Source of the DNA: Octopus vulgaris
Lineage: Eukaryota
Assembly (NCBI GenBank): GCA_951406725.2
Contig: OX597838.1
Coordinates: 39,804,001 to 39,868,000 of the forward strand
Length of the DNA stretch: 64,000 nt
Reading direction: 5' to 3'
Part shown: piece after piece, positions 3,011 through 60,658 of the stretch
Layout: each line of letters opens with the position of its first letter
How positions within the stretch are numbered: the first letter of the stretch is position 1
The notes under the pieces: generated by a model
The model's input: the letters and a program-made list of their open reading frames with translations, nothing else
Told to the model about the DNA's origin: nothing
Database searches by the model: none
Position numbers and translations under genes: made by a program

Positions 3011-3039
3011 GTTTTTGTGTGGATGCCCCCAGACGATAA

Positions 3040-9877: not shown

Positions 9878-9984
<107 letters not shown>

Positions 9985-11585
9985 TATACATACAGAAAGA
10001 GAGAGTGAGAGAAAAATGTATGTATGTATCGTATGCCTATAAAACACACATATACGTACGCATAATACACGCGCCATCTTTAACAAGCTGGCAGAGTATA
10101 ATAAATTAGTTAAAGAATATAAATAAAACATAATGTCTTAAGAGAAAGAAAGAGAATTCGCTATTACATTGTTTTGGTGTCAGGAAAAACTCACTGTATC
10201 TTTCCATATGTTTTTCTTTTGCGTTAATTCCAGTCGTTTGTATTCAGCACGTAACAGTAACTCTAAAGCCCTGGTAACAAGATTTCTGATTACACAATAT
10301 CAAACTTACGGAAATTGTATGACATAACAGTTAATTTGATAATTTCGCCTTCACGGAGATTTGGGTTAAGTTTTAACGATTTTAAAAACTAAAACCATGA
10401 TATCCATATATGTACGAAAAAATAATCTATTTTTAAAATAACCCTTTCTACTATAGGCACAAGGCCTGAAACTAAGGGTGGGTGCTAATCGATTACATCG
10501 ATTCCAATAGTCAACTCGTACTCTTTTCATCGACTCCGAAAGGATAACCTCGGCGGAATCTGCACCCAGAGCGTAGCCACTGACGACATGCCGCAAAGAC
10601 ACCGCCCGGCGTGCCAACGCCGCCTTCTATTTTAAAAATAATGTTTGGTATGATACTTTGATACACCCAGCAGCTCTTTTTGTCACTGTCTTCTTCATTC
10701 TCTGAACAGTTATGTTGATTACTGCCTACAGCTTTAATTTTTTTGCGAACTTATTTTTTCGTTATCATTTTTTTTATTTGTCATTGCTCTCAAATTTCTT
10801 GGCTACACCTATCCACGTCCTCCTCTTCTCCACCTTGTTTGTATATGCTGGAAGACAAAGAAATGTCTTAGAATGGCGATTACTCTTTCCTCGGATTCTT
10901 CTGTTTTACAATTTGGTGTGGATTCTCGTATCTATCGCTGCTGCTTTCGAATAAATATAAACGTATACAATATAATGCATTGAAACTGGAGAAAATGTAT
11001 GAGGTGGAATTGAAGGCAGTAATGCGAAAAGTCGTTTGAGACAGGTTAATCTAATCGTCAAGCTTGATGTTTCATAAAGGTTTCGTGCAGAAGAATAACT
11101 CTTACATTCCTAAATGCATACATACACACATAGGTACATATGAATATGATAATTACCTCGCCTTGTCGGACGATACCCGTCTCACATTCAGCCTGATTGT
11201 TCTGTTATATTTTCACCCCTGCATGTGTGCGGAGATCTGTTTCCAGGATGTCGCCACACATCCAGCGCAATAGGACTTCATAAAGTACAAAACGGTTGAT
11301 CAAGAAATGAAATGATAGCGAGACATCAATACGTCATTGAATTTAGGTGACAAAGATTGCCGATGTTGGTTCCAGTGGTAAGCATTGCAAGATGATTGTT
11401 ACTATTTTGATAGAATGTTTTATGTCAGAGTATCTTGCTCCTAGAAGAGATGTCGTACTCACGGTTCTGTCAAAAATAACGGAAGCCTCTCCTACCCTTG
11501 GGAAATATATTCAACTCGTAGATGGGACTCTGACAGCCACTATCGTTCTGGGTCAGCACGGACCTTGGAGTAATGGTATTTAAGG
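9985..11585 (+). repeat. Segmental-duplication block paralogous to about 56410-57617
   Basis: Long near-identical stretches (e.g. cttcctcggattcttctgttttacaatttggtgtggattctcg) and a shared SINE. Confidence 0.9.
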
Positions 11586-14974: not shown

Positions 14975-15335
14975 GTGGTGAGCTGGCAGAAGTGTTAGCA
15001 CGCCGGGCGAAATGCTTAGCGGTATTTCGTCTGCGGTTACGTTCTGAGTTCAAATTCCACTAAGGTCGACTTTGCCTTTCATCCTTTCGGGGTCGATAAA
15101 TTAAATACCAGTTACGCACTGGGGTCGATATAATCGACTTAATCCGTCTGTCTGTCCTTGTTTGTTTCCTCTGTTTTTAGCCCCTTGTGGGTAGTAAATA
15201 AACAAGTATTTCGTCTGTTGCAACGTTCTGAGTTTAAATTCCGCCGAGGTCGACTTTGCGTTTCATCCTTTCAGGTCGATGAAATAAGTACCAGTTCCCC
15301 ACAAAATTTTCGAGGCCTTGTGCCTAGAGTAGAAA
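14975..15335 (+). mobile_element. SINE family 2 composite (Tx1-tailed unit plus headless second unit with a different tail)
   Basis: Meta-domain-like gtcgactttgcctttcatcctttcggggtcgataaattaa; junction near 15205. Confidence 0.85.
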
Positions 15336-15352
15336 TAATAATAATAATTATT

Positions 15353-15387: not shown

Positions 15388-15699
15388 TATTATTATTGTT
15401 TGGAAAAATAGAACGTTTGTTCATGGCTCGTCAGTTTCCTTTAGAATATGTTTTATTATTTGGTATACGAATTATTGTTTAACTGTTTACTAGATAAGGT
15501 AGCTCGCTTTGCTTGCAGTTCACTGGTCTGGCGAAAACTTCGCTTTTGAAAGACGAATTTTGAAAATAATGATAAAATAACAACACAAGCACGACCTCCC
15601 CCACCGCTACCACCAATACAAAAATTAATACAACCAAAACATCGGCGTTCTTATTTCTAAACAAACTGGGTTTCGCTTCGCACAATTATGTCGTAGAAG

Positions 15700-16195
15700 G
15701 AAGGACGTTGACGTGTCTGAAAACAAGGTAAGCGATGCAAAAGCACACTTTACAAAGAGTGACAGAATAATATTTCTAAACACGCCAGAGGAAATAGAGG
15801 AAGACACTAAAAAAGTATTATATACAAATGGCACTACTCTGGAGGTTACAGGAGCAAACTTTAACAAAATAAAATCAGTGGGCCTACAGAGAGGTAGGTC
15901 CATACAGTCCAATAACGTCGTGGAACGCTGGACGTGAAGGCCGGTTAAATAGCTCGGGGTCTAGTTTGGTCTGCATCTCCTGGTGGAGAAAAGATAGTAC
16001 AAGGTAACGATCAGGGTGGCTAATGTCACTGAGAAATAGTGATTAAGCTGTCCCTGACAAGTCGGGCAAAGGTGGCGAATGCTTACGTCACTCCGTTATA
16101 TATTATCGTCTGACCCAGTTTACGCCTGACCAAACTTGAGCGCGCATTCTTCCGCTCTCTGTGGTAGGGCGGTGTTTCACTAATCAGGCGCTTCA
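15700..16195 (+). mobile_element. Internally deleted Tx1-like relic (probable ORF1 piece joined to post-RT ORF2 piece)
   Basis: LNTPEEIEE resembles ORF1 INIPEEILE; EVTGANFNKIKSVG and WT-GPVK-LGV match 39345-39730. Confidence 0.65.
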
Positions 16196-16807
16196 TTGTT
16201 TCTGCTTTCAGGCTCCACATTCAGGTTGTTTTTATTTCTAGGTCTAGGTATTTCGGCAGTTTATCTGTTTCTTTTAGAGATACAGAGATAGATTACCATC
16301 TGTCGGGACTGATATGTCGGTTAGAAGGCATTTATTTTCTTGGTTGTCCTTGAGAACAATATCTGGTGTATTAGACTTGATCTCACCTCTATCTGTGTAT
16401 AGTAGCATAAACTATACTTTGAATAAAATGGGAGGATAGTTAAATGTACTTTAAAGCAATAAAATTTAAGTCTAACAGGCGATATCCTTTATGGCTAAAA
16501 ATAGAAGAGCTACAACATAAAGTAATGAGATTCTACCCACCTCCTTTAATGCAGCTTACATTTGTCTAATACACTGGTTTCAAATTTGGGGACAAGGCAA
16601 GCAATTTTGAAGGAAGTACCAAGTAAAATACATCGACCACACCAGTGCTCCACTAGTAGTTATTCAATCAACCCCGAAAATCGAATTCGGTGGAATTTGA
16701 AATCAGAACGTAAAGACGGCCGAAATGCCGCAAGTATTTTGCGCAGCGCGCTAACGATTCTGTCATCTCGCCACCTTACATCTGTTTAATATATTAGGCT
16801 GTCAGAA

Positions 16808-17200
16808 GGCGGCAAACTGGCTGAATCGTTAGCGCGCCGGGCAAAATGCTTAGCGGTATTTCGTCTGCCGCTACGTTGTGAGTTCAAATTCCGCCGAGGT
16901 CGACTTTGCCTTTCATCCTTTCGGGGTCGATTAAATAAGTACCAGTTACGCACTGGTGTCGATGTAATTGACTTAATCTGTTTGTCTGTCCTTATTCGCC
17001 CCCTCTATGTGTAGCCCCTTGTGGGTAATAAAGAAATAGGTATTTCGTTCTTGTTTATGTTCTGAGTTCAAATTCCGCCGAGGTTGACTTTACCTCTCAT
17101 CATATCAAGGTTGATAAAACAAGTAGAAGTTGACCACAGGGGTCGATGTACTCGTTTGTAACCACCCCCCATAATTTCAGTTCTTGTGCATATAGTAGAG
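16808..17200 (+). mobile_element. SINE family 2 composite
   Basis: Tail aataaagaaata joined to ggtatttcg at 17039. Neighbouring copies at 16600-16775 (-) and 17222-17420 (+). Confidence 0.85.
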
Positions 17201-17583
17201 AAGGGTAGAAACGTAACATTGGGCGGCGAACTGGCAGAATCATTAGCATGCCGTGCAAAATACTTAGAGGCATTTCGTCTGCGTTTACGTTCTGAGTTCA
17301 AATTCCAGCGAAGTCGACTTTACCTTTCGTCTTTCGAAATCGATAGAATAAGTACCAGTTGATGTAATCAACTTAGCCCTCCTCTAAAATTGCTGTCCAT
17401 AAGCCAAAATTTGAAACGAATACATTAAGGTGTCAGATAATTTTTTTTATTGTTTTCCCCCTGCTTCTCACTTTTAAAAAGTGTAAAGATAAACGATAAA
17501 CCAAAGTGGCAAACAAAGAACAAGTCTATAAATAAACCTTAAACACTACGAAAGAAATATTAATTCGAATAACATTGTAAAGG

Positions 17584-20879: not shown

Positions 20880-21292
20880 TATTTCATTATTACCCACAAG
20901 GGGCTAAACACAGAGGGGACAAACAAGGACAGAAATAGGTATTAAGTCGATTACATCGACCCCAGTGCGTAACTGGTACTTAATTTATCGACGCCGAAAG
21001 GATGAAAGGCAAAGTCGACCTCGGCGGAATTTGAACTCACAACGTAACGCAGACGAAATACCTATTTCATTATTACCCACAAGGGGCTAAACACAGAGGA
21101 GATAAACAAGGACAGACATAGGTATTAAGTCGATTACATCGACCCCAGTGCGTAACTGTTACTTAATTTATCGACGCCGAAAGGATGAAAGGCAAAGTCG
21201 ACCTCAGCGGAATTTGAACTCACAACGTAACGCAGACGAAATACCGCTAGGCATTTCGCCCGGTATGCTAACGATGCTGCCAGCTCACCGCC
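20880..21292 (-). mobile_element. SINE family 2 composite with 16-bp TSD
   Basis: TSD tgcttgttttagtacc at 20864-20879 and 21293-21308; internal junction at 21062. Confidence 0.9.
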
Positions 21293-21623
21293 TGCTTGTT
21301 TTAGTACCGACTCAGTACAAACATTAACAGACCTGACATATGATCGGAGACATTTCAAACATGGTTGCCATGTCTAATTTTCAGCAAAAAGGTATCTCCA
21401 GACTACATTATTGTCATTTGACTGCGGCCATGCTGCAGCACCGCCTTTAGTCGAGCGAATCGACCCCAGGACTTATTATTTGTAAGCCTAGTACTTATTC
21501 TATCAGTCTCTTTTGCCGAAACGCTAAGTTACGGAGACGTAAACACACCAGCATCGGTTGTCAAGCGATGTTGGGGGAACAAACACAGACACACACACAG
21601 GCACACACACACACATACATGCA

Positions 21624-33247: not shown

Positions 33248-33335
<88 letters not shown>
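33248..33335 (+). repeat. (TATC)n array, left of Tx1 copy A
   Basis: Perfect tetranucleotide repeat. Confidence 0.97.
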
Positions 33336-34692
33336 CATTTGCTGTCAACACCCGTTAAAAGGAGGACTGGGCATGCCGTGGTTGATGATGCGCAGATACG
33401 CGCTGAGACTGCGACATCTCAGGCTCTTCGTAGACGACGGTGAACAGGTGTGGTCGCCGTTTGTGAGGCACGCTTTCCCGCAGCTCGTCTCCATGACCGA
33501 ACTGCAGTCGTGGATCAAAAAGAGGCCGAGGAAGGGTGAATGGCAGCTCTCAAGCAACTCTGCCGTCCCGGGTCGACCTTGAGTGACTTCAACACAACCA
33601 AAGCATTCTATAGGGTATTAGTGGAGGGGAGGTACGACGACAAGCTCGGGGCGAACCTGGACGTCGACGAGGAGTACCTGACCCGCCTGTTCAGGACGAC
33701 TTTCGGGCCAGGGCCCATGGACAACTTCCAGAGATCCCTGGCCTGGCAGTGCTACCGAGAAGCGCTACCCGTTCGGGATAAGCTCTACAGACACGGCTCG
33801 AGAAACACGGGGCCGACCTGCCCGAGATGCGGTCAGAGCGACAAAACCGTTCTGCACGCACTCGTGCAGTGTCCAACAATTTCCGACCTGTGAGCTTATG
33901 TCGAACAACTGTCACCTGTGGGACGAGTCGGTTTATCAGCTGAGTCTATCGTCAATATTGTCACGCCTCCTTCCTTCAAACGGGAAGGAAGAGCTATTTT
34001 CATCATCTTTGTGGCTATGGCGAAAGAATGTATCTGGTGGACGCGTCTGAAAGGATTGGAGACAAATACTTTCCTCTCTGGTCAATCTTTCATCAACTTC
34101 TTCAAGTACCACTTGAAAAGGAAAGTGAGAGTAGAGAGGCAAGTTTTGTCTAGCGAATGTTTTAAAAAAAGATGGGTGAATGTAGCAAGGATGGCACGTA
34201 TGAATTACGAAGCCACGTTGAGCATAATCCTATGAACCCAGAAATTGAAAACAGAGGGTTACCCACTTGCAAACAAATGTGGTAACATGTAACAATATTG
34301 CCCAAGGTTACCGTGGTCTTTTTCGTAGGCTTTTCTTCCCACGGATAAACCTTACTTGTTTTCCCCTTTACACCATATATCATAACACTGTGATACACGA
34401 TCCCTATTGATCGTTTTTTTTTTCCTCTTCCCCTTTTTTCCCCCTTTTTCTTCTTTTTTCATTTCTCTTTTCTTTTGTTCCTTTTCCTTTTCTTTTTTTT
34501 CTTTTTATTCTTTTTATTTTATTTTATTTATTTTTTGGTTCTTTTCTTCCCTTTTACGATCCCTCTTGATCGAAAACCTACGCCACCCCCTTTTTTTTCT
34601 TTTGTTTTTTGTTTTTTTCATCCCCCAAAAGAAAAGCTCTACCTTGTAACTTGTCCCATCTATGTGCAGCCCTGTGTGGCCAATAAAGAAAC

Positions 34693-34693
<1 letters not shown>
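33336..34693 (+). mobile_element. Tx1-clade non-LTR retrotransposon copy A, 5'-truncated
   Basis: ORF2 3' part (GLGMPWL, CPRCGQSDKTVLHALVQC zinc finger), 3' UTR ending AATAAAGAAACT; (TATC)n on both sides. Confidence 0.9.
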
Positions 34694-34774
<81 letters not shown>

Positions 34775-34779
34775 CTGTC
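34694..34779 (+). repeat. (TATC)n spacer between copies A and B
   Basis: Tetranucleotide repeat. Confidence 0.97.
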
Positions 34780-34979
34780 TATGGATGTGCTGTCTCATCG
34801 ACTCCGAAGGTAATTCTTTATTTTGACTATTTATAGCCCAATTTTTGTGTACATTTTTGTAAATAAGTTGTGTAAGGCACCCAACTTTCGTTTGAGTGCT
34901 TTTCCAAGGGAGGAATTCGCCCCTAGGGGCAGTTTCAACCCTATTTGATTTTTGTAATTTCTTTCTAGACATTTTCAAA

Positions 34980-37153
34980 ATGTCAAGAAATTGTATTGTA
35001 GAACAATGGTCGCGTTCCTTTATCGACCAGCTTTCTCCTAGACTGGAAACGCTAGGAGAAAAAAAGAATTTTTGCGCGCAAAGTAAAATTATCAATGACT
35101 TTGCAATGAACGCTACAACTACGTGTAGTAACAGCCCTGTCACCAACACCACCACTAGCAAGAACAACATAGAGACTACTACTGTTACCACCACCGCCTT
35201 CACCACCACCACCGCCGTCACCTCATCCATTACCTCAACTACCAACAGCAACAACAATAACAATGACAACAAAAATAAAAATTGCGCCACTATTTCGACA
35301 TCTGCTGCCTCGGCTGTCTCTTCTGTCACTGACACCACCACCACAAAAACAACAATAACAACAACAACAATTCCGTTCAGACCTGTTTTACTCCAACAAC
35401 AAGAACTGAAGTGAATAAACAAAAAACTGTAACCACCAAACAAATTGACAAAAGCTGCTCGAATACAGGGATAAATTATGAAAATAATTTTCCACCCCTT
35501 CCTACTTGCACAATCGAACCAAACACACCAATTTTACAAACTGCAGCCAACAACAACATCACTACCAGCAACAACAATAACAAAACAACAACAAATTTCG
35601 CTGAGGCGATTAAAGAAAAAACAACAGTATATTTTACTGCTCAACAAATACAAAACACGAACATTACAATAACAGAATTAGATGGTATAGTGAAGATAAA
35701 CATACCAGAAGAAATATTAGAAGATGAAAAAAAAAGAACAATTATTTATAAAATAATTAATAAGAAAACAAAAAGCCCAGAGAAGGCTAACACAAGCAAA
35801 ATAGAAAAATGCTTGAAACCCATCTGGAACTACAAAGACTATGTGACCTGGTGGAACAAGTTCGCACACATAAAAGTGGTTTTCCACACTGAAGAGTTAG
35901 CAAGACGTTTCTCAACGCTAACTCTTCATTCAGATGAACTTACATTAACACCAAGCTATCGGGGACAGAAAGTGACTAAGATCACTTTAAACAATGTCCC
36001 AAAAATAGCTAATAATCTATGGCTAGTAAAGGCCTTATGTGTAAAAATGACAAATTTCACTATTTTGGAAACCACGGTCACGGAGCACAAAAACTGGGTG
36101 GGAAAAAAAGTAGAATTTCTACTACATGTAAATCAAGAAGACATAAAAAAAATACCTACCCAGATATGTGTATCAGAAGACCACAAGTTGTATGTGGTCG
36201 TCGATGGCAGAAGACCACGTTGCTACATATGCGGCAGTGAGCAACACCTAAAAAAAGACTGCAAATCTGCCGCAAGAAAACAACAGCAGCCGGAAAAAAA
36301 ACAAATAAACCAGGTTTACTACCCACACCACGTTTTGCAGGAACAAACCTCACCAACCAAACAACCACACCAACTGCAGCACCAAGAACAGAAGCAACAT
36401 CACCAACAACAACAACCAAGAATAAACCAACTCCCAAACCAAGGACATCTGCCAAAAAGACACTCAGCGAAAATGAAGAAACAATTACAACTCCAAATCC
36501 CCACAAAATTGAGACCCCAAACAACACAACAATACCTACAATCACTCAAACACAAAATACCCACACCCCACCTCCAAAACCGCATACACCACAACCAAAC
36601 GCTCACCAACCAACACCAACAACAAAATCAACACAGTCTACAATAGACCCCAATATTTTCCCTCTTCCAAGCTCTGATTCTTCTGATTTGTCATTAGACG
36701 AAGAAGACCCAGAGGATTGGCAAATAGCCACAGGAGGGAGAAGAAAAAAGGGGGAAAAAAAGAAAAGAAAAAATAACAAACAAAGCAGGAAGATACACCA
36801 CTCCCGAAACAAAAACATCCACAGAAAACGAACACATCAATACAAACACACCATCATCAAACCCCCCAACAATGTTGACAGCCATAAACACAAATAACCA
36901 CGACCTAATGGAATACATTAGGTCAAACACCAACATAACTGAAAACGACATAAAAACAAATAACCACCCACGCACAACACCACCACAACATATTAAAATA
37001 ATACACGTAACACAGAACACACACCCAGCACCCTGAAATCTCTCTACCCTGATAGAGTAGGGAGATTTCAAAAATACCTATCAAAGAAACTTTACAAAAC
37101 CTCATGGGAGAAGACTGTGAGGTGAAAAACAAAGGACTTTCGGACGATAAGTA
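34980..37153 (+). pseudogene. Tx1 copy B ORF1 (gag-like, CCHC), frameshifted
   Basis: ATG 34980 MSRNCIVEQWSRSFIDQ is homologous to copy C ATG 41281 MSINFIVERWSNSFMDQ; Thr/Asn-rich N-terminus; CX2CX4HX4C near 36221. End approximate. Confidence 0.75.
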
Positions 37154-37223
37154 ACCTTTTCTCTCTCTCTTTCCTTTTTTCGCACTTTCTTTTCGTGTGT
37201 ACAACACAATTTTCTATAAGAGC

Positions 37224-40200
37224 ATGTTCAAAATAGGCAGTATAAATGTACGTGGCTTGGGGTCGCCTTGGAAACAAGGCTACCTGTTAAATGATATCAA
37301 GTCACTAAATCTGAATATCATAGCCATCAGTGAGACCAGACTCCACAGCTCGGGGGCACTCCAGCACATGTTCGGCACACATTTCAACATTTATTTTTCT
37401 CCGTGTCTACCGAGAATGGGCGGAGGTGGCACCGCGGTGCTTCTCCGGAAGAGTTTGAACCTCAAAGTAAGAGCAAATTTCCTAGACCCGGAGGGTAGGC
37501 TGGTTGTTTTTGGATGTCGATGGCAGCAATGAGTGTGCTTTTCGACTGATAACAGTTCATGCACCGTCCTTAACAGGCCGACCAGATTTCTATCGACGTC
37601 TAGAGTCTTTCATGGGAACGTCGCGTCCTTTACTTAGTGGAGGATTGGAATGCCACCCTGGACACGCATCTAGACTACGTGGGCAGAGATAGCAATAGAA
37701 AGGGATGCAAATGCCTCAAAGACCTGCTCAGACGTTTCCAACTGTCTGACAGGTACCGACTGGACCATCCGAATGTGCCAATGTGGACGTGGAGTAACCG
37801 CATCGGGTCGTCCAGATCGTACTTAGATAGAGTATTCTGTAGGACAATAGATAAAAATAGTGTAGGTTGTCCACAATTTCATATAGTCAGTTACACAGAT
37901 CACAAGTTTGTGACTTGTACACTTGACTTAGATAAGACACATAGGCAGGGTCCTGGTTACTGGAAGCTGAACGCGTCTTTTACAGCACGACAGGTTTACA
38001 GGGACCGGATCAGCACATTAGTTAAGAGAGCTTTGACGGGTACCATCATCAACAACAGATGGTGGTATGCCCTAAAAAAAAGCAATTAAAGCAGAATCAG
38101 TCAGATACAGTAAAGCCCTAGCATTAGACCGAAATAGAATAGAGCGAGACTTAGTTAAGGTTTTAGAAGAGGCACTTAGGAGTGGCATCGCTTTCAACGT
38201 ACTGGCAGCGAGGTTGGCTCTCGACCAACACCTCAACGCCAAACACGAAGGATGCGTTGTCAGAGCTAGGATGCGTGCTCTGAGGAACGAAGGAGTTGGA
38301 GCCGCCCAAGAGGCCCGAGTGGGTGGAGACGCAACGAGGCAACAGAGCCACCATCAAGTCTCTTACAGATGAACAGGGGCACGAATTGCTCGAGCCTAAA
38401 AGGATGTGTGGGGCTTTTCAACAACACTTCACCCAACTGTTTGGGACAAGTGGTGGGTCAGAACGCAGAGTAGACTTTAGTGCCTACCTGCATGCCTTGT
38501 CACGACTCACAGCAAGAGAGGTGGAGTCTTGTGAAAGGCCAATCACAGTTGCGGACGTACAGGATGCGATGGTAGGCTGCGCGAGAGACAAGTCACCAGG
38601 CTTGGATGGTCTGCCCTACGAACTTTATTTTCATATGCCAGACTTGTTTGGTGGCGTCTTGGCAGCTGTCTACTGCAACTAGCAGCAAAACGGGAGTATC
38701 CCTGCTTTTGTAAAGCGAGGAGCAGTGGCACTGATTAAGAAAGACCCAAACAAGGGGGACGTCATAGATAACTTCAGGCCCATCACTCTGCTCAACGCAG
38801 ATTTGAACATTTTGGCCAAGGTGTTAGCCGAGAGGTTGGCGCTTGTCATCAGGAAACTAGTCGACAAGGCGCAAACATGCGCCCTGTCGGGTAGAAGTAT
38901 TCATGACAACCTCCATCTGATGCGCTACATCATAGACAGGGTAGTCAAGAATCCTGGCATGGGTGGGGCGCTGATCAATTTGGATCAATCAAAAGCTTTC
39001 GATAGGGTAGACCATCACTACTTGGAGGCTGTCCTTAAAGCGGCTGGTTTCGGTCCAGTTTTCCGCGGTTGGATCGCTGCCTGATACAGTGGCATCCGCT
39101 CAGTAGTTCGCGTAAATAGTCATTTATCCAGACCTTTTAACATCATGCGTTCGGTTCGTCAGGGATGCCCCCTCTCATCGCTTCTGTATGTATTGACTCT
39201 TGAGCCACTACTGCGGAAACTGGCGATGCTGACGGGCATCCCACGAGAGCTGGGATGCGGGAGGAGCGTGTCTGCATACGCGGATGACGTCACCGTCATA
39301 GTGACGAGCTACCAGCACATCGAGCTGGTCGGCGAAGAATACGAAGCGGTAACGGGAGCAAAAATTAACCGGGAAAAGTCAGTGGGCTTGCGGCTCGGCA
39401 CCTGGAGAAGCAGGCCCATGCCGTCCAACAGCGTCTCCATCGTGGGACGCTGGACGGACGGACCGGTTAAATTGCTCGGGGTCTGGTTCGGTCCGGACCT
39501 CCAAATGGAGAAGAACTGGGGCGAAATAACGACTAGGGTGGCTACTCTCACCAAGAAATGGGCTGAGAGAAAGCTATCCCTAAAAGGTTGGGCGGAGGTG
39601 GCGAACGCGTACATCGCATCTGTCATCGAGTATCGTCTGACCGTCGTGCCTTGTCCCGACCCTACCATCATCAAACTTGAACGTATACTCCTCCGCTTCC
39701 TGTGGAAGAGAAACGTCCCGATGGTTAGGCGATCCATTTGCTGTCAACACCCGCTAAATGGAGGGCTGGGCATGCCGTGGTTGATGATGCGCAGACATGC
39801 ACTGAGACTGCGAAATCTCCGGCGCTTCATAGACGACGGTGAACAGGTGTGGTCGCCTTTTGTGCGGCGTGCTTTCCCGCAGCTCGTCTCCTTGGCCGAA
39901 CTACAGTCATGGATCAAGGAGAGACCGAGGCTAGGCGAATGGCACCTCGAGTGTCCTGTTGCTCTCAAGCAACACTGCCGTCCGGGATCGAACTTGTGCG
40001 ACTCCATCACAATAAAGGCATTCTATAGAGGATTAGTGGAGGGAAGGTGCGACGACGAACTCGGGCAGAGTCTGGGCGTCGACGAGGAACACCTGACCCA
40101 CCTTTTCAGGACAACTTTCGGGCCGGGACCTATGAACAATCACCAAAGATCCATGGCCTGGCAGTGCTATCAAGAAGCATTAACTGTTCGGGATAAGCTC

Positions 40201-40653
40201 TACAGACACGGTCCCAGACACACAGGACCGACTTGCCCGAGATGCGGTCAGAGCGACGAAACCGTTCTGCACGCACTCGTGCAATGTCCAACCATTTCAG
40301 ACCTATGAACTTATGCCGAACGGCTGCTGTCACGTGTGGGACGAGTTCACCTAACGGCCGAGTCTATCGTGGAAATTGCTCCGCCCCCTTCCCTCAACCG
40401 GGAAGGCAAGGCAGTTTTCATCGTACTGGTGGCCATAGTGAAAGAATGTGTGTGGTGGAACCGAGCGAAAGGATTAGGGACAAACACTTACCTCTCTGGC
40501 CAATCGCTCATCAACTTTTTCAAGTACCACTTGAAAAGGAAGGTGAGAATGGATAGGGAAGTTTTGTCTCGCGAAAGATTCAAAAAAAGATGGGTGAATG
40601 TTGCAAAGATGGTGCGTGCGAGTGACGAAACCATTTTGAGCATGATCCTGTAG
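37224..40653 (+). pseudogene. Tx1 copy B ORF2 (APE endonuclease-RT-CCHC) with frameshifts and stops
   Basis: Split over ORF-track pieces 37197, 37504, 37637, 38296, 38725, 39145 and 40336, all with L1/Tx1 motifs. Confidence 0.9.
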
Positions 40654-40952
40654 ATCGTAAAAAAGAAGGAGAGAGAGCATTTTGCTCTCATGTGGTTATT
40701 TCCTCCCTGACTGAGGTTCCCGTGGTCTTTTCTGTAGGCTTTTCTTCCCACGGATGAACCTAATCTTGTTTTATCAATGTTTTTTTATCAATGTTTCTGT
40801 GATACACGATTTCTTTTTTTTTTTGCCTCCTCTCGATCCCTTTTGATAGCAATCTTACATTTATTTACCTTTTTTTCCACCCTCGAAAAGAAAAGCTCTA
40901 CATTTGTATTTGTCCCATCTGTATTCAGCCCTGAGTGGCTAATAAAAGAAAG

Positions 40953-40953
<1 letters not shown>

Positions 40954-41047
<94 letters not shown>

Positions 41048-41048
41048 C

Positions 41049-41081
<33 letters not shown>
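40954..41081 (+). repeat. (TATC)n spacer between copies B and C
   Basis: Tetranucleotide repeat with one TACC variant. Confidence 0.97.
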
Positions 41082-41280
41082 GACTGACGTGTTGTCACAT
41101 CGGCTCCGAAGGTAATCGTTTATTCTCACTATTTATAGCCCACATTTTGTGTACATTTTTCTAAATAAGGTGTGTAAAGCACCCAACTTTCGTTTGAGTG
41201 CTTTTCCAAGGGAGGAATTAGCCCCTAGGGGCAGTTTCAACCCTAATTAAATTGTATATTTTTCTTCTCGAAATTAAAAA

Positions 41281-43239
41281 ATGTCGATAAATTTTATTGT
41301 CGAACGCTGGTCAAATTCCTTCATGGACCAGCATTTTCCTAGCCTTGAAACTCCTGCACGCACACACATTCGAATAGAACAGACATGACCAGCAAGACAT
41401 CAAAGACAAATCTGAGTGACGTGGAAGTGAACGCTGCAACCACTTTCGTTAACAGCCCTGTCACCACCACCAACAACAACAACGAGACTACCACTGCTAC
41501 CACCACCACCACCACCACCACCACCAACATAAATGATAAAAATGAAACTGACTCAAATAGCATTAACAACAACAACAAGAAGAATAACAACAACAAAAAT
41601 GAAATAAATATCATATCATCCAATAGTGAAGATATTATTAACATAACAGAAACAACAGTACCTGAAAAAGCCACGTCCAAGAATATTTTGGATACAACAA
41701 CAACAAAAACACACAACGACAACAACTGCCAGAATAGAACAGTGAATTTCGCTGACACCCTGCGTCAGAAAAAGGAAATAATAAAATTTACAAATGAAGA
41801 GTTGATAGAAACGAGAGCACTCTTTACAACCTCAGGGCAGGATTTAGTATTGCATACACCTCAACACGTAAAGGAACAAATAGAAAACAAAACGATTATA
41901 TATAAAATTATTAAAAAAAGCAAAAAACAAAATGAACAGATAACAAAAACGGACATAGAAAAGTGTGCAAAAAACATGAAAACAAAAGAATATATAAACT
42001 GGGATCCCCAGTTTAATACAGTGGTGGTCCGCTTCCCTAACCAGGAAGTGGAAAAAGCTCACTCTACGGAGACTTTACAAAATGATGAAATCATCATGAT
42101 TCCGTATTACAAAGGACAAAGACTGAGCAAAATTAGAATTAAAAATGTCCCAACAGATATACCACCGAAATGGATAACATCGGCGATATGTTACCATTTA
42201 AAAACGATAAATATATTAGAAATCGCCGTGTACAAAAATTACAATTGGGGTGGTAAATCGATAGAAGTTACCATCCAGATTGATGGGTCCTCTATCGAGA
42301 ACCTACCTGATAGAATCCATTTAGAAAATGGGCAAAGCCTATATGTTGTAGCAGAAGGGAAAAAGCCAAGATGCTACAACTGTGGCAGCCCAGAACCCTT
42401 AATTGCAAAGTGCGTTCTAGGACAGAAAAAAACAAGAAAGAACAAATCAGAAAACAAATAAAAAACCCTTGCTACCAACACCAACGCCACACTCAATTAT
42501 GGAACAATGCCAAGAAAAACAACAAACCAGCAAACAAACCCCAACAACATCACCAAGAAAAGAAACAGCACCAACACAATCACAGTTGACGTCGCAACCA
42601 ATTCAACATACTGAACCAACACCAAAATGTAAACCAACACCAGCACCAATGATGACAACTAAAAAAACAGAAAACAGTAACGAGAAAACAAATTCTACCC
42701 CTAACACCACAACACAAACACCGCACAAAACATCAACAATTTCTACAAACATATATATTAACGCAAATGCTTTGCCTTTACCCGCTTCTGATTCGTCGGA
42801 CTCGCCGTCCAACGACAAAAGTTCGACGTAATGGCAAATAGCCACAGGGGGTAAAAGGAAAAGATAAAAAAAGCCCACCAAACAAGTAAGTAAAGCAGGA
42901 AGATATGTAACTCCGGACAGCATCCCCTTAGACATTAAAAAAAAATCAATGAACACCTAGAAACCACACAAATAGACACAGACAATGAAAAACTAATGGA
43001 TTAAATTGCATCCAACACGAACATCTGTGAAGATGACTTTAAGACAATCATCCGCACACCACACCACCGAAACACATAAGAATTGTACACATAAGACAAA
43101 CACAACACCATACACTGAAAACAATATTTCCAAATGCGGTAGGCGGGTTTCAACGATACCTCTCCAAAAAACTATACAAACACCTCCTCAAAGACACTAC
43201 AAAAGAAGAAGAAAAAACTGAAACTTTCGATATGAGTAA
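41281..43239 (+). pseudogene. Tx1 copy C ORF1, frameshifted
   Basis: ORFs 41385-42461 and 42469-42831; knuckle CYNCGSPEPLIAKC with H replaced by P. End approximate. Confidence 0.75.
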
Positions 43240-43309
43240 GTGACCTTCCCTCTTGTCTCTTGTCTCTTCCAATGTAGTGTGTGAAACACAAATTTCTTAA
43301 ACTTCAATT

Positions 43310-46309
43310 ATGCCTAAATTAGGTTGTGTGAATGCACGTGGCTTGGCTTCGGCTTGGAAGCAAGGTTACCTTCTAAACGACATCAAGTCACTGAACGTGG
43401 ATATAGTAGCTATCAGTGAAACCAGACTCAGCAAGCCGCGGGCCCTCGCGTCCATGTTTGGCGATCAATTCGACATTTATTTTTCTCCCTGTCTGCCGAA
43501 CATGGGTGGTGGAGGTACTGCGGTGCTTTTTCGAAAGAGTCTAAATGTAAAAGTAAGAACAATATTCCTAGACCCGGAGGGTAGGCTGGTTGTCTTGGAC
43601 GTGGATGGCAGAAATGGGTGTGCATTCCGTCTGATGGCAGTTTATGCACCGTACGTAACGGGTCGGGCGGATTTCTTCAGACGTCTAGAGGTTTTCCTGG
43701 GTACGTCTAGACCTTTACTGTTAGTAGGGGATTGGAACGCTACCTTGGAAATGCATCTAGACTATGTGGGAATGGATAGGAATAAAAGGGGGTGTAAGTG
43801 CCTCAAAGACCTACTCAGACGTTTCCATTTGTCTGACAGGTTCCGACTCGACCATCCGAACGTGCCAACGTGGACTTGGACAAACAGCGTCGGATCGTCG
43901 AGATCTTATCTAGATAGAATTCTATGCAGGACAGCGGATAGGGATAGTGTAGAATGTCCACAATTTAAAATAATCAGCTACACAGATCACAAATTTGTGA
44001 CGTGTACGCTCGACTTAGATAAGACATATAGACAGGGTCCCGGTTACTGGAAAATGAACACGTCGCTCTTAGCGCGACAGGTTTACAGGAACCGGATTAG
44101 CGAGTTAATTAAGAGGGCGTTGGAGTGAGCCGTCGTTAACAACCGCTGGTGGTACGCCCTGAAAATGGCAATAAAATCGGAATCAATTAGGTTTAGCAAG
44201 GAATTAGCGATAGATCGAAATAGAGTAGAGGGAGACCTGGTTAAGAAACTAGAAGAGGCACTTGCCACTGGCAGCACAACCAACGTGCTGGCTGCGAGGA
44301 TGGCCCTCGACCAACACCTCAACGCCAAGCACGAAGGTTGCGTCGTCAGAGCTAAAATGCGTGCCTTAAGGAACGAAGGGATCGAAGCTGCGCGAGAGGC
44401 CCGGGTAGTGGAGGCGCAACGTGCCCACAGAGCCACCATTCGGTCTCTAATAGATCAACAGGGATGCAGTTTACTCGAACCCGAAAGGATGTGTGAGGCC
44501 TTTCAACAGCACTTTGCTCGACTGCTTGGTGCGAGTGGTGGGTCGGAACGCGGGATGGATTTCAGTGCCTACCTGATCGACCTGCCGCGGCTCTCGGCAA
44601 GAGAAGCGGAGTGTTGTGAAAGTCCCATCACAGCCGCTGACGTGCGGGATGCGATGACGGGCTGCGCGAGGGATAAGTCGCCTGGATTGGATGGTTTACC
44701 CTATGAGCTGTATTGTCAAATGCCAAACTTGTTTGGCGACCTCTTGGCATCAGTCTACTGCAACTGGCAACAAAACGGGAGAAACCCCGGTTTCGTGAGC
44801 CGATGTGCAGTGACGTTGCTGAAGGAAGACCCAAACAATGGGAATTTTATAGATAATCTCAGGCCCATCACTCTGCTCAACGCAGATTTGTCGGCATATG
44901 CGGACGATGTCACCGTCATAGTGTCGAACGAAAAACACATCCAGATGATAGGCGAGACACTAAGAAAATACGAAACGGTGACGGGAGCGAAGATTAACCC
45001 GGAAAAGTCAGTGGGTTTGCTACTCGGCATCTGGAGAAGCAAGCCCATGCCGTCCGACTGCGGCTCATTAGTGGGACACTGGACGGACGGACCGGTTAAA
45101 TTGCTCAGGCTCTGGTTCAGCACGAACCTCCAAATGGATAAGAACTGGAACGAGATCATGAGTAGAGTGGTCGCTCTCAGCCAAACATGGGCCGAGAGAA
45201 AGCTGTCTCTAAAAGGTCGGGCAGAGGTGGCGAACGCGTACATCGCATCCGTCATCGATTACCGCCTGACCGTCGTGCCTTGTCCCGACGCCACCATCAC
45301 CAAACAGAAACGCATACTCTTCCGCTTCCTGTGGAAGGGTGGCGTTCCGATGGTGAGGAAGTCCATTTGCTGTCAACATCCGTTAAATGGAAGACTGGGC
45401 ATGCCGTGGTTGATGATGCGCAGGCATGCGCTGAGACTGCGACATCTCTGGAACTTCATCGACGACGGTAAACAGGTGTGGGCGCCGTTTGTGAGGCGCG
45501 CCTTCCCGCAGCTCGTCTCACTGACCGAACTGCAAACGTGGATCAAGAAGAGACCGAAACTGGGCGATTGGCACCGAGAGTGTCGCCAAGCTCTACAGCA
45601 GCTCTGCCGACCGGGGTCAAACTTGTGCAACTTACAAACTACTAAAGCGTTCAATAGAGGACTAGTGGAGGGGAGGTCCGACGACACACTCGGGGCAAAC
45701 TTGGGCGTCGACGAGAAATTCCTAACCTGCCTGTTCAGGACGTCGTTCGGGCCGAGGCCTATGGATATCTTCCAGAAATCCCTGGCTTGGCAGTGCTATC
45801 GAGACGCACTACATGTTCGATAGAAGAGCTACAGGCACGGTTCGAAAACCATCACCGGACCGACCTTCCCGAGATGCGGTCAGAGCGACGAAACCGTTCT
45901 GCACGCAGTCGTGCAGTGTCCAGATATTTCAGAGCTGTGGACCTTCGTCGAACAGCTGTTGTCGCGTGCAGGACGGGCCCGCTTATCGGCCGAGTCTATC
46001 GTGAATATTGCTCCACCACATTATTTTAAACGGGAAGGGAAAACGGTTTACGTTACGCTGATGGCTATGGCGAACGAATGCCTGTGGTGGACGCGTTTGA
46101 AAGGACTGCAAACAAACACCTTCCTCTCTGGTCAGTCTCTCGTCAACTTTTTCAAGTACCACTTGAAAAGGAGGATGAGAATAGAGAGGAAGGCTTTGTC
46201 GAACGAATGTTTTAATAAAAAGTGGGTAAAAGTGGCAAAAATGGTCAGTATGAAAGACGACACTATTTTAAGCGTTTGTAACCAAAAGAGACAACGAGAG
46301 GTAATGTGA
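43310..46309 (+). pseudogene. Tx1 copy C ORF2 with in-frame RT deletion and frameshifts
   Basis: MPKLGCVNARGL APE start, GDWN, YTDH, PGLDGL, YADD; ORF pieces 43310, 44165, 45911. Confidence 0.88.
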
Positions 46310-46572
46310 CTTACTCATGTGTTCTATTCCGAACTGTCTGAGGTGACCTTGGTCTTTTTAGTAGGTTTTTCTTTCCAAGGCTACACCTAAACTGTGAACT
46401 TTATATATATATATTGCTTTTTTATACACCACACAACCCACAGATCCCTATTGATTGAACGTTTTTTTTTTCTTTGTATGTCCCACCCATCCCACGTCGA
46501 AAAGAAAAAACTCTGCGTTGTATTTCGTCCATTTTTATTCTGTGTTTAGCCCTGTGTGGCTACAATAAAAAG

Positions 46573-46573
<1 letters not shown>

Positions 46574-46643
<70 letters not shown>

Positions 46644-46644
46644 C

Positions 46645-46718
<74 letters not shown>

Positions 46719-46826
46719 GTCTGTGTATCTGTCTGTCTCTCTGTCTGTCTGTCTATCTGTTTGTCTGTCATTCTGTCTATAAATATATCTGTCTATCAAT
46801 CAATCAATCAATCTATCTATCTATCT
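46574..46826 (+). repeat. (TATC)n array decaying to TGTC/AATC, right of copy C
   Basis: Tetranucleotide repeat, degenerate distally. Confidence 0.95.
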
Positions 46827-48599: not shown

Positions 48600-49660
48600 T
48601 GTCTTCTGTAATCTAAGTGTTGTGTCTGTTCTATGCGCCGATAATACCTTAACCTCTGTGTTATTAACCGATCCTCTATGTTCTACTTGAATACGTTGGT
48701 AGAGCACTGGCGAGCCTTTCTCCTCCTTGAACTTCCGTCAGTGTTTCGTCTATTCTCTCCCTTATGCTACGCGCCGTCTCCCCGATGTAAGTTGTCTTGT
48801 TTCTGCACCGTCCCTCAGTACACCATAAGCTATAATCTACATTTCTAATCTTACAACTAACCTGTTGGTTCATCCTAAATAATATACAATTGTTCTCCGC
48901 ACATGGGGACCGATCGAAGGGATAAGTTCAGGGATTTTATGGGGGTTCTTGGCCTTTCTACTACTTTAATCCGCAGATTTAACTTATTTAATTCTTTTCT
49001 GAAAAGGTATGTTAGTTCGCCACCAGGAGCAGTCTGAACAAACATTACACTCCGGTATTTTTGTTGTTATGAGGTGGTGCGAGCTGGCAGAAACGTTAGC
49101 ACGCCGGGCGAAATGCGTAACCGTATTTCGTCTGTCGTTACGTTGTGAGTTCAAATTCCGCCGAGGTCGACTTTGCCTTTCATCCTTTCGGGGTCGATAA
49201 ATTAAGTACCAGTTACGCACTGGGATCGATGTAATCGACTTAATACCTATGTCTGTCCTTGTTTGTCTCCTCTGTGTTTAGCCCCTTGTGGGTAATAAAG
49301 AAATAGGTATTTTTGTTGTTATACCATGAGTTGGCGTTATCTATTTTTTCTTGGTCCTTTCCGTGGTGTTCCAGGATTTACTCCAATATAGCGAGCAGAA
49401 ACTATTTACATCACTCTCTATGATGACCTTGTATTCCGGCTCCCTTGTACACTCTAAATTTGTCCCTTCAGTTGTAAATAGAGAATTGCCTGCGGTGGAT
49501 GAGGTGTTGTATGTCTTTTTCCAATTTCATTGGGTCGCATATGTGGGTCACATTCCTCATCACTGTCACTAAGACCGCTATTAGGATATTGAACTTTGCG
49601 TTGTCTGCAATAGCTGCGTTCTTGTGGATCTGGTATTTGGAGGCAATGGATTTGGCATAA
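48600..49660 (-). mobile_element. Penelope-like element remnant (RT C-terminal part plus GIY-YIG)
   Basis: NVDYSLWC..C..TTYIGETARSIRER at 48740-48845; YYAKSIASKYQIHKNAA resembles the RT thumb; interrupted by a SINE at 49071. Confidence 0.75.
49071..49305 (+). mobile_element. SINE family 2 monomer with 17-bp TSD
   Basis: TSD ggtatttttgttgttat at 49054-49070 and 49306-49322. Confidence 0.92.
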
Positions 49661-55085: not shown

Positions 55086-57889
55086 AAAAAAGCAACAAGA
55101 ATGGATCAATATATCGGTATAATTGTTTCGTACGAGGACATCTTTAATAAAGCTACAAAAATTGCAGTAAATATAGGTGGCTCGTACTCATCAGCCGAAA
55201 AAACGTCAGAGATTCCCAAACATCAAAGGGGGTAATGTTACACTTATGAAACATCATGGAAAATTCTATAAAAATGAGAATTTAGATAATATATTGGTTT
55301 CTAAGAGTTCAATTAGTATTATACAGTCATATATCAGGTTATTAAAAAGTTTTTTCAAAACATCCTAGTTTTCCAGAGAGTGAAGATACAAATGAGGGTG
55401 TGAGTTTAACTGTATTGAAGAAAGGTTGATTCCTGGAGATCCGATGAGAGGTCTTGAACTTACAGAATATGTGCTTGTTCATATATAGTTCATAGTAAAT
55501 TGTTAATCAAGCTATGTGAAGAGATTTTTTGGATACAATCGTGCGAAATTTCTGAGAACTGCTGTATTATAATCCGAGTAAGAAGCAAAGCAACAGTCTT
55601 TTCGTGTAGAAGAACAGATTGTTATTGAAATTTACAAGAATCACAGAGCTAAGGAAGAAAGTTGAAATTTGACCAGTTACTGCTATTAATTGCTATATAA
55701 AGAGGGAACGGGGAGCTAAAAGGGAGGGTCACAAGTTGTTACTATAAGAAAACATCTTAGCTTATTTGGTGCAAAATTCGAACTGAGGTCATTTAATTTA
55801 TTTCTTTATTTATTAATGTTACTATTAATAGATTGTCAGGTTACAATGAGAGGTCAGAAGAAAAGAAAAGAAAAAAGAAAACAGGAGTTATTTTCTAATG
55901 AAACCATACAATTATATTATATTATAATATATTATATTATAATAGGTTTGGGATTAGCAGAATTAGTTATTAGTGTAAAAGAAACTAAGAAGTTTAACTA
56001 ACTAATTTCCTATAAGTAGGTTAAAGTGAAATAGACTAAGAAATAGAGAGAAAAAAATAGAGAGAAAAGATTTAAATTATCTACATAGTCTAATAGAATG
56101 AAGAATTAAATCAAATAACTTAAATCAATAAGTATCACCTAGTACAGTTAGAGAGAGAATATAATCATAGCTAATTAGATCGTCGCTGTCTAATTAAATA
56201 TATAATATAATATAATATTTAGGAGTAAAGTTTAATTCAAAGTGATTTCATAGAAAGTGATTTTAATATATACTGTTATCAATTAAAACATCATTTAAAA
56301 TATTTAAGAGTCCTAGTTCGAGCGTGGATACAAGATTTTCCCAGTTCAATCCTGCTGTTCAATAAAATTTCCTTATTTTTTCTATACATTAGTATTTCAA
56401 ATGTTTCCATGTATATATATACATCCATACATAGAGAAAGAGAGAGAGAGAGAAATGTACGTATGTATTGTATTCCTATATGAAATGAATATGTGAGCAC
56501 AAACACACATATACGTACGCATAATACACACGCTATCTTTAACAAGCTGGCAGAGTATAATAAATTAGTTAAAGAATATAAATAAAACAATGTCTTAAGA
56601 GAAAGAAAGAGAATTCGCTACTCCATTGTTTTGGTGTCAGAAGAACTCACTGCATCTTTCCATGTTTTTTTTTTTGTTTTCTTTCGTTAATTCCATTCAT
56701 TTGTATTCAGCACGTAACAGTAACTCTAAAGCTCAGGCATTTAGATTTCTGATTACACAATTTCAAACTTACGGGAATTGTATGAGGAAATCATTAATTT
56801 GATCATTTCATTTTCACGGAAATTTGGGGAAAATTTTAAGGATTTTAAAAACTAAAACCATGATGCACTTATATGTACGAAAAATAATCTATTTATAAGA
56901 GATACTTTCTAATATAGGCACAAAGCCTGACATTGGGGGAGGGGGATAGACGATTACATCGATCTCAACACCCGACTGGTACTCTTTTCACCTGCCACGA
57001 AATGATGAAAGGCAAAGTCGACCTCAGTGGAATCTGCACCCGGATGTAGCAGCGGACGATGTGCCGCAAAACGTGCCGCCCTGTATGTTTGGTATGGCAC
57101 TTTGGTACACCTAGCATCTCCTTTCACTTTCTAATTCAATCACTGTACAATTTTGTTGATTACTGCCCATCGCTTTAATTTTTTTGCGAACTTATTTTTT
57201 TCTATTTGTTATTGCTCTCAACTTTCTTAACAACACATACCCACGTCCTCCTCTTCTCCACCTTGTTTGTGTACGGTGAATTTCAACTGGAGGACAAAGA
57301 AATGTGTTAGAATGGAGATTACTCTTTCCTCGGATTCTTCTGTTTTACAATTTGGTGTGGATTCTCGTATCTATCGCTGCTGCTTTCGAATAAATATAAA
57401 CGTATACAATATAATGCATTGAAACTGGAGAAAACGTATGAGGTAATGCGAAAAGTCGTTTGAGACAGGTTAATCTAATCGTCAAGCTTGATGTTTCACA
57501 AAGGTTTCGTGCAGAAGAATAACTCTTACATTCCGAAATGCATACATACACACATATGTACATGATGATTGCACTGTCGTTCTGGGTCAGCACGGTCCTG
57601 GGAGTAATGGTAATTTAGTGGTGATTCTGCGCTCACCACAATTCCCAAATTTCCGAACAAGAGCCTCACCTGTCATACCCAGGACTTACGTACATACATA
57701 CATACATACATACATGCATACATACATACATACGCCCTTTGACTGTACAACTTTTCCATGTGAACCAAGAGTAGCTGGACTAACCTTTTTAAACAGAAAC
57801 TTGGAGGGGAAGCAATCATTATGTTAATAGAAAGTTATACATGGAATAGCAGCGTCTTCTGGACCTGTGAGAGATAAATCACGTTTCCC

Positions 57890-60648: not shown

Positions 60649-60658
60649 ATTATTTAGA

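What the first reader, a model, noticed from the sequence alone, without database searches (positions are those of the whole stretch)
34640..34693. SINE 3' tail is shared with the Tx1 3' end (SINE-LINE partnership with a Tx1 element)
Seen: Tx1-A ends TTGTCCCATCTATGTGCAGCCCTGTGTGGCCAATAAAGAAACT and Tx1-C ends CTGTGTTTAGCCCTGTGTGGCTACAATAAAAAGT. The SINE ends CTCTATGTGTAGCCCCTTGTGGGTAATAAAGAAATA (17003-17038) and CTGTGTTTAGCCCCTTGTGGGTAATAAAGAAATA (49272-49305). Both form a GCC(C)-loop-GG(C/G)Y hairpin just before AATAAA. Established: SINEs borrow the 3' recognition stem-loop of their mobilising LINE. Inference: the partner is a sister Tx1 family with a different target (CGGWA rather than TATC). 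Other family-2 copies carry an unrelated tail, implying a tail swap.
Basis: partly seen in the sequence, partly recalled or inferred. Interest (0 to 1): 0.75.

Follow-up and report, generated by a model that had tools for sequence, protein, structure and literature searches.

The report
SINE swaps between two LINE hairpins
A common short jumping repeat in this octopus-like genome comes with two different ends, each resembling the end of a different branch of one L1/Tx1-like jumping-gene lineage and carrying the same small predicted hairpin, so it likely borrows those genes' copying enzyme and likely changed partner and landing site when it swapped ends.

Summary
Observation confirmed. Seven SINE ends (tail T) match the last ~50 nt of three L1-group LINEs lying head-to-tail in a (TATC)n array: 21 of 21 pairs beat shuffles, and 19 of 21 stay at or below 14/2000 shuffles without the AATAAA end. 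One correction: the other tail (R) is not unrelated. It matches the 3' ends of ORF2 relatives from another organism; a model built only from those LINE ends finds five window hits at E<0.01, all tail R. All four groups share a GC stem closing a CT(N1-2)GT loop, with two pairs flipped G-C/C-G (about one event). The motif is in 61 of 65 close LINE loci and 0 of 86 distant ones. T copies insert at C|GG, including their own head; R copies at TAT-rich sites; the LINEs at TATC. The exact partner was not found, no genome was held, and Tx1 membership was not tested against named elements. Likely a stringent L1-group SINE-LINE partnership with a tail swap; Ohshima's survey lists such L1-clade pairs only in plants and an alga.

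The parts
33248..33335 (+). (TATC)22 upstream of LINE-A
33336..34693 (+). LINE-A, 5'-truncated within ORF2 (ATC microhomology at the junction), decayed
   Evidence: 82% and 79% identical to B and C over the shared ORF2 part
34669..34680 (+). LINE-A terminal hairpin, 3-pair GC stem with CTGTGT loop, followed by AATAAA
   Evidence: pair probability 0.7-0.9
34694..34774 (+). (TATC)20 between A and B
34775..40953 (+). LINE-B, near full length, ORF1 with weak zinc knuckle, ORF2 broken by stops and frameshifts; hairpin loop at 40931-40936
40954..41081 (+). (TATC)32 between B and C
41082..46573 (+). LINE-C, endonuclease + RT with an internal deletion in RT; hairpin loop at 46552-46557
46574..46826 (+). 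(TATC)n downstream of C
49071..49305 (+). tail-T SINE monomer: tRNA-like head (A/B-box-like by eye), body, tail from 49241; hairpin loop 49285-49289
   Evidence: ARAGORN and Rfam found no tRNA match
49054..49070 (+). 17-bp target-site duplication, left copy (starts GG after C); right copy 49306-49322
62833..63244 (+). tail-T dimer: one head, two 183-bp body+tail units; 12-bp TSD (1 mismatch) starting GG after C
20880..21293 (-). tail-T dimer whose two units share private variants; 16-bp TSD starting GG after C
14977..15345 (+). chimera: head + body + tail T, then an older headless body with tail R starting at the C|GGTATTTC site
16806..17210 (+). chimera: diverged head (38/46), young body (112/118) + tail T, then old body (90/117) with decayed tail R
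6506..6722 (+). tail-R SINE, hairpin loop 6700-6704, TSD 15/17 starting ATAT
   Evidence: E 2.9e-6
6930..7100 (-). 5'-truncated tail-R SINE ending in (ATT)n
   Evidence: E 2.6e-6
10440..10625 (-). old tail-R SINE, TSD 15/16 starting TTAT
   Evidence: E 0.007
16585..16776 (-). old tail-R SINE with decayed hairpin, TSD 15/17 starting TATT
   Evidence: not found by the model
56905..57060 (-). old tail-R SINE
   Evidence: E 1.9e-4
1405..3715 (+). two decayed, more divergent sister-LINE pieces in tandem; the first abuts (TAT)17 at its truncated 5' end; no 3' end left
   Evidence: ORF1 39% to B and C, endonuclease DNA 61-66%
15400..16218 (+). decayed sister-LINE piece (ORF1 trace, RT part 63-65% DNA identity), directly after an ATT/ATC run; no 3' end left

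Best explanation
The SINE exists with two tails that match the 3' ends of two branches of one L1-group (likely Tx1-type) LINE clade, and it is likely copied by those LINEs' ORF2 proteins, which are predicted to read a small GC-stem hairpin with a CU(N)GU loop at the RNA end. Shown: tail T resembles the window's TATC-embedded LINEs, tail R resembles relatives from another organism, both tails join the same body at one point, T copies have TSDs starting at C|GG and R copies at TAT-rich sites. Inferred: the SINE is a Pol III transcript; the younger tail T was gained by a template switch or a short LINE insertion at the end of the body; its partner is an unseen sister family whose endonuclease cuts at C|GG(TA); because that site occurs in the SINE's own head, new copies land there and join the existing head by homology, which gives the one-head dimers and T-R chimeras.
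For: Tail T vs window LINEs 21/21 pairs at <=5/500 shuffles, vs outside LINEs 0/28; tail R vs outside LINEs 20/32, vs window LINEs 7/24. Model from 10 outside LINE ends only: 5 hits at E<0.01 in 64 kb, all tail R. Hairpin motif scan: 15 window hits against 0.47 in shuffles, 13 of them LINE or SINE ends. Motif in 61/65 close loci, 17-20 nt before AATAAA, 0/86 distant loci; relaxed test on loci with long ORF and AATAAA: 52/52 vs 1/27. Window LINEs and the outside LINEs fall in one 24-row clade, SH-aLRT 100, quick tree. Pairs formed 82.9% vs 68.1% shuffled, 0/500, slid controls at most 47.6%, two pairs flipped G-C/C-G. TSDs. Contigs of 4 runs: tail-R loose ends behind 49240 in all 4; joint from tail end back to 49123 in 14-16 contigs per run; SINE body as a top loose end behind 49312 in X6. 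Established: SINEs use a partner LINE's RT through a shared tail, tails are swapped, Tx1 elements target microsatellites and transposons (PMC3747384, PMC4824008, PMC4494074, passages).
Against: No LINE with the exact T or R tail was found (empty; none among the shown rows, where most rows were cut). The three window LINEs sit in TATC, not C|GG. Fold energy is no better than shuffles and the T hairpin has pair probability 0.02-0.8 depending on context. The compensatory flips amount to about one or two events between related groups. The 65 close outside loci come from a single assembly. 3 of 8 tail-R copies match weakly. Only 3 outer T sites and 3 R sites were read. Tx1 identity was not tested with named elements.
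Confidence: 0.68

Rival explanations
1. The TATC-embedded families themselves mobilise tail T; the landing site differs because the SINE RNA ends in GGUA(UUU) and pairs with the nicked strand, so no sister family is needed.
For: Tail T is about 75% like these LINE ends, as close as they are to each other over the last 50 columns (33-39/50). Three families of this type lie in the window. All T ends are followed by GG, and the first T4 run comes only after the tail.
Against: 3 of 3 LINEs are in TATC and 0 of 7 T ends are. In Tx1L and related elements the endonuclease is said to set the target (PMC4494074, passage). More divergent sister families exist.
Confidence: 0.15
2. The tails are relics of an L1-group origin, and the SINE (above all tail R with its ATT end) is or was moved by another LINE such as an (ATT)n-targeting R4/Dong element.
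For: Tail-R copies end in ATT runs and insert at TAT-rich sites. Dong-R4 is the most numerous active LINE group in Octopus vulgaris (PMC13282606, Table 1). No tail-R LINE was seen in this organism.
Against: The hairpin is intact in most copies and matches only this clade among the loci examined. A sister LINE piece of this clade abuts (TAT)17. No R4/Dong end was available to compare.
Confidence: 0.1
3. The likeness is chance or convergence on a poly(A) signal and a U-rich upstream stretch.
For: Short match, A-rich end, weak fold; two of 21 pairs lose significance without AATAAA.
Against: 19 of 21 pairs hold without AATAAA; tail R has no AATAAA yet matches LINE ends picked only by protein similarity; each tail prefers its own LINE group.
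Confidence: 0.03

Closest known systems
ZmSINE2/ZmSINE3 with LINE1-1_ZM, and SINEX-3_CR with L1-1_CR (Ohshima 2012 PMC3472496, passages; Ohshima 2013 PMC3747384, passages and Table 1)
   Same: tRNA-type SINE sharing about 50-80 nt of 3' end with an L1-clade LINE; hairpin with conserved loop and variable, compensating stem
   Different: Those are plants and a green alga, and were the only 3 L1-clade cases among 58 pairs. Here an animal, a target-preferring lineage, loop CT(N1-2)GT rather than UCU, no poly(A), and two tails from two branches.
SINEU with Tx1-Mar in crocodilians (Kojima 2015 PMC4494074, passages and parts 2-3 of 5)
   Same: SINE tied to a Tx1-type LINE; target preference; tandem SINE insertions; microsatellite-targeting Tx1 relatives (Kibi, Koshi)
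   Different: That link rests on shared targets and snRNA heads; the paper found no LINE similar to the SINEU-1 3' half and SINEU ends in poly(A). Here the link is the tail, the head is tRNA-like, and the target is not shared with the LINEs seen.
Mollusc HCD SINEs with swapped tails: bivalve CORE, V, Meta, Deu SINEs with CR1, CR1-Zenon, L2, Nimb partners; Ceph-SINEs with RTE (PMC11481361, PMC4824008, PMC5786205, passages)
   Same: One body with exchangeable LINE-derived tails
   Different: No L1 or Tx1 partner is named in those passages (the word Tx1 occurs 0 times in PMC11481361 and PMC5786205).
Octopus tRNA-Deu / tRNA-Core SINEs and L1-Tx1 LINEs (PMC8967140 passages; PMC13282606 part 1 of 3; OK, OR1, OR2 of Ohshima and Okada 1994, not read)
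   Same: Probably the same or related families: these SINE classes dominate octopus genomes and L1-Tx1 families are listed as active
   Different: No partnership, tail hairpin or target site is described in what was read; identity with named families could not be tested.

Membership tests
tRNA-derived SINE | Short (<700 bp), multicopy, non-coding, with TSDs | tested here: met
   About 235 bp, 15 units aligned in the window, TSDs of 12-17 bp in 6 insertions
tRNA-derived SINE | tRNA-related head with A and B boxes | tested here: inconclusive
   Box-like motifs by eye (consensus recalled); ARAGORN 0 genes, Rfam no tRNA match
tRNA-derived SINE | Pol III transcription | not testable with these tools
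   No internal T4 run in 3 of 3 young insertions checked fits, but no RNA data
L1 group of non-LTR retrotransposons | ORF2 with AP endonuclease, RT and C-terminal zinc finger, closer to L1 than to R2 | tested here: met
   Pfam PF03372, PF00078, PF13966; relative P0007 (44% identical) hits human L1 ORF2p at 1e-68 and R2 at 1e-15; only these two clades have solved structures in that list
Tx1 clade | RT phylogeny groups with Tx1L, Keno, Kibi, Koshi | not testable with these tools
   No hit carried a Tx1 name; the tree has no labelled reference
Tx1 clade | Target-sequence preference | tested here: met
   3 of 3 elements, 78-82% identical to each other, are flanked by (TATC)n; one locus only
Tx1 clade | ORF1 with zinc knuckle (recalled feature) | tested here: inconclusive
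   PF00098 in B at 19.2 bits, below the 20.8 cut-off; none in C
Stringent SINE-LINE pair | Shared 3'-terminal sequence | tested here: met
Stringent SINE-LINE pair | Conserved terminal stem-loop with compensatory changes | tested here: met
   few independent events, weak fold energy
Stringent SINE-LINE pair | SINE and LINE share the insertion signature (tested for the three TATC LINEs) | tested here: not met
   LINEs in TATC, tail T at C|GG, tail R at TAT-rich sites; so these three are not filed as the direct partner
Stringent SINE-LINE pair | Mobilisation depends on the tail | not testable with these tools
   needs an assay
DeuSINE / Nin-domain SINE | Conserved central domain | not tested
   Resemblance of the body is recalled only; SINEBase supplements could not be read, text search found no match in a SINE paper

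The most novel reading that the evidence does not exclude
A dominant octopod tRNA-SINE is the first animal SINE shown to carry a structured L1/Tx1-group tail: the LINE clade uses stringent recognition of a CU(N)GU-loop hairpin kept across distant animals, the SINE moved from one branch of the clade to another by swapping hairpins, its target changed with it from TAT-rich sites to C|GG(TA), and the young form now homes into its own head.
Probability: 0.45. Interest if true: 0.72.

Novelty: new variant of a known kind. Interest (0 to 1): 0.57.

Why it matters
L1-group LINEs are the textbook 'relaxed' type; Ohshima found only 3 L1-clade tails among 58 SINE-LINE pairs, none in animals. A 14-nt hairpin with a fixed loop and a flipped stem, shared by two SINE tails and three LINE branches, gives a direct handle to test whether stringent RNA recognition survives in animal L1/Tx1 lineages. 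It would also name the engine behind SINEs that make up over a tenth of an octopus genome (11.6% SINE in PMC13282606, if this is one of those families), and link a tail swap to a change of target site.

Tried and rejected
No genome is held for the window, so the genome-wide partner search could not be run. Exact tail-T patterns found nothing in viral, metagenome or genome contigs. My first window pattern was mis-specified and gave 0. A tail-R-like pattern in genome contigs gave 90 loci; of the 80 listed, most were the same assembly's LINE ends and the rest scattered bacterial matches, taken as chance and not read. No ORF2 relative in viral contigs. No RNA holder listed among the runs. Thermodynamic support for the hairpin: none. 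A pair count for the second stem of the outside LINEs was uninformative because the alignment was out of register. An alignment with the window LINEs put their 5' stem arm one column off, so the pair count leaves them out. The tree is the quick one; the careful search did not finish. Idea that the 15.4-16.2 kb piece is the lost 5' part of LINE-A: rejected, it is 63-65% identical to B and C while A is 79-82%. The 5'-end likeness of that piece to B and C was no better than shuffles. Protein atlas gave only unnamed RT clusters. Earlier findings by sequence and place: none. Automatic TSD search missed the R-copy TSDs, which were read by eye.

Full report
Setting. The window is animal DNA rich in microsatellites. 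No genome is held. The nearest named ORF2 relative is from Argonauta hians, 63% identical over 407 residues, so I call the host octopod-like; this is inference.

The LINEs. Three elements lie head-to-tail in a (TATC)n array: A (33336-34693, 5'-truncated), B (about 34775-40953) and C (about 41082-46573), with TATC runs before, between and after them. They are 78-82% identical over the shared ORF2 part, so they are separate families. ORF2 has AP endonuclease, RT and zf-RVT domains and is broken by stops, frameshifts and, in C, a deletion. An intact relative (44%) matches human L1 ORF2p at 1e-68 and R2 proteins at 1e-15. No hit carried a Tx1 name. Tx1 is likely from the microsatellite target (Kibi, Koshi precedent in PMC4494074) but is not tested.

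The observation. All quoted strings are in place. Seven SINE ends (tail T) align to the LINE ends over about 50 nt at about 75%. All 21 pairs have z 4.2-10.6 against 2000 dinucleotide shuffles; without the AATAAA end 19 of 21 remain at or below 14/2000 and two are weak. The A and B ends were the only non-SINE hits of a SINE query in the window. Against the hairpin: none of 8 folds was more stable than shuffles.

The second tail is related. A search with an ORF2 alignment returned 65 loci at 35-50% identity (most 41-44%) from one assembly labelled as a bacterial MAG, evidently carrying eukaryotic LINE arrays, plus 86 distant loci at 23-40%. In a quick tree the window LINEs, the Argonauta protein and one unnamed protein form one branch, sister to 20 rows that include these loci in two sub-branches; the 24 rows have SH-aLRT 100 (66 rows, careful search unfinished). 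These outside LINEs end in a C-run, an A-run, a GC stem closing CT(N)GT, a second stem and AATAAA. A strict motif (three G-C pairs, loop CT(N1-2)GT) occurs in 61 of 65 close loci, 17-20 nt before AATAAA; the 4 misses had no 3' end in the range searched; it occurs in 0 of 86 distant loci, many of which lack a full end. Restricted to loci with an ORF of 1000 residues and an AATAAA, a relaxed motif gave 52 of 52 and 1 of 27. In the window the strict motif occurs 15 times against 0.47 in shuffles: 3 LINE ends, 6 tail T, 4 tail R, 2 others. Pairwise tests split cleanly: T with window LINEs 21 of 21, T with outside LINEs 0 of 28, R with outside LINEs 20 of 32, R with window LINEs 7 of 24, R with T 0 of 56 (4 of 10 outside ends used). 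A covariance model built from 10 outside LINE ends alone gave 18 window hits up to E 10; the 5 below 0.01 are all tail R, out of 8 R copies (E-values rough).

The hairpin. With 5-nt-loop rows only (7 T, 7 R, 10 outside; 21 distinct), 82.9% of cells pair against 68.1% shuffled (0/500) and at most 47.6% when slid; two pairs are G-C in R and the outside LINEs and C-G in T. The number of pairs with double changes was not above shuffles (291/500), and the flips are about one event. The window LINEs have a 6-nt loop and a third stem combination, read by eye. Pair probabilities are 0.70-1.0 for the window LINEs, 0.12-1.0 for R and 0.02-0.8 for T. So the structure is supported by conservation and flips, not by energy.

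Swap and targets. Both tails join the body right after the same 7 bases (49240 in the reference copy). Contigs of four runs with four organism labels show tail-R-like loose ends behind 49240 in all four (much of the output was cut). Three outer T insertions have TSDs of 17, 12 and 16 bp, each starting GG after C; CGG has a frequency of 0.006 per position. Three R insertions have TSDs of 16-17 bp with 1-2 mismatches starting ATAT, TTAT, TATT, read by eye; two others gave none. R bodies are older (76-89% to young T) than T bodies (93-99%). Four T ends are followed by a headless body starting at the SINE's own C|GGTATTTC site. In two the second body is an old R copy, and at 16806 the head is also old (38/46) while the first body is young (112/118), as expected if a new copy landed in an old one and joined its head. 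In the 20880-21293 dimer both units share private variants, which points to one template or a local duplication; the 62833 units differ in subfamily variant. The same joint (tail end back to 49123) is in 14-16 contigs of each run, and the SINE body is a top loose end behind 49312 in X6.

Partner. No LINE with the exact T or R tail was found. Three decayed pieces of more divergent sister families are in the window, none with a 3' end; two begin right after ATT-type runs. That hints at an ATT-targeting sister as partner of tail R, but ATT runs are common here.

Mechanism. Shown: shared ends, motif distribution, swap point, TSDs, nesting. From established knowledge: SINEs are copied by target-primed reverse transcription by a LINE that recognises the shared tail, tails are exchanged, and the endonuclease mainly sets the target (PMC3747384, PMC4824008, PMC4494074). 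Inferred: this clade reads the hairpin; the SINE first used a branch with the R-type stem and later gained the T-type tail; an unseen sister family cutting at C|GG(TA) moves it. Confidence 0.68. Rivals: the TATC families do it with RNA-primer pairing choosing the site (0.15); relic tails with another clade, such as R4/Dong, as motor (0.10); chance (0.03).

Comparison with print. Ohshima 2012 (passages) reports three L1-clade tails among 58 pairs; Table 1 of Ohshima 2013 (read) shows them in maize, sorghum and Chlamydomonas and lists no Tx1 pair. Kojima 2015 (passages, parts 2-3 of 5) links SINEU to Tx1-Mar by target and found no LINE matching the SINEU-1 3' half. Mollusc SINE papers (passages of PMC4758252, PMC4824008, PMC5804259, PMC5786205, PMC11481361) name CR1, L2, Nimb and RTE partners. 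Octopus papers (PMC13282606 part 1 of 3 and passages; PMC8967140 passages) list tRNA-Deu, tRNA-Core and L1-Tx1 without pairing them. Nine searches found no report of this pair. Repbase, Dfam, the SINEBase supplements and subscription papers such as Ohshima and Okada 1994 and Kojima and Fujiwara 2004 could not be read and may name these families or the pair.

Verdict. Real, stronger than first read in one respect (both tails belong to the same LINE clade), weaker in another (partner and clade label unproven). New variant of a known kind; interest 0.57.

Noticed in passing
window 49242-49250 and 49303-49311: One tail-T subfamily variant begins with 9 bases that are the exact reverse complement of the tail end plus the first target bases, and they fold as a closing stem. 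This would fit an RNA that runs through GGUA; seen post hoc, may be chance.
   Followed up: partly
L081-L151 (contigs CAXXMW01, labelled uncultured Arenicella sp.): Contigs of 13-94 kb hold head-to-tail arrays of mostly intact LINEs at about 6.4-6.9 kb spacing, several families, no TATC arrays; likely host DNA binned into a bacterial MAG. They carry a second, variable stem just before AATAAA.
   Followed up: partly
window 1405-3715 and 15400-16218: Decayed sister-LINE pieces; two start right after ATT-type runs, a possible (ATT)n-targeting family.
   Followed up: partly
window 3870-4326, 17584-17988, 23861-24283, 24621-25055, 60198-60649 and others: A second, about 420-bp SINE-like family with about 10 copies; one copy has an internal match to the hairpin motif at 30196. 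Tail not compared with any LINE.
   Followed up: no
window 9970-11143 and 56409-57568: Two copies (80%) of a 1.2-kb repeat, each holding an old tail-R SINE with similar downstream flank, so probably copied with its host repeat.
   Followed up: no
window 29102-29836 (-): Tc1-like transposase fragment (PF01498, PF13358).
   Followed up: no
window 48500-49700 (-): The 49071 SINE sits in a repeat that looks by eye like a Penelope-type element (recalled motif, untested).
   Followed up: no
window 11857-12333 (-): Weak helicase matches below Pfam cut-off, possibly a Helitron remnant.
   Followed up: no
window 57889-58177: 27-bp tandem repeat, 10.7 copies, 97% matches.
   Followed up: no
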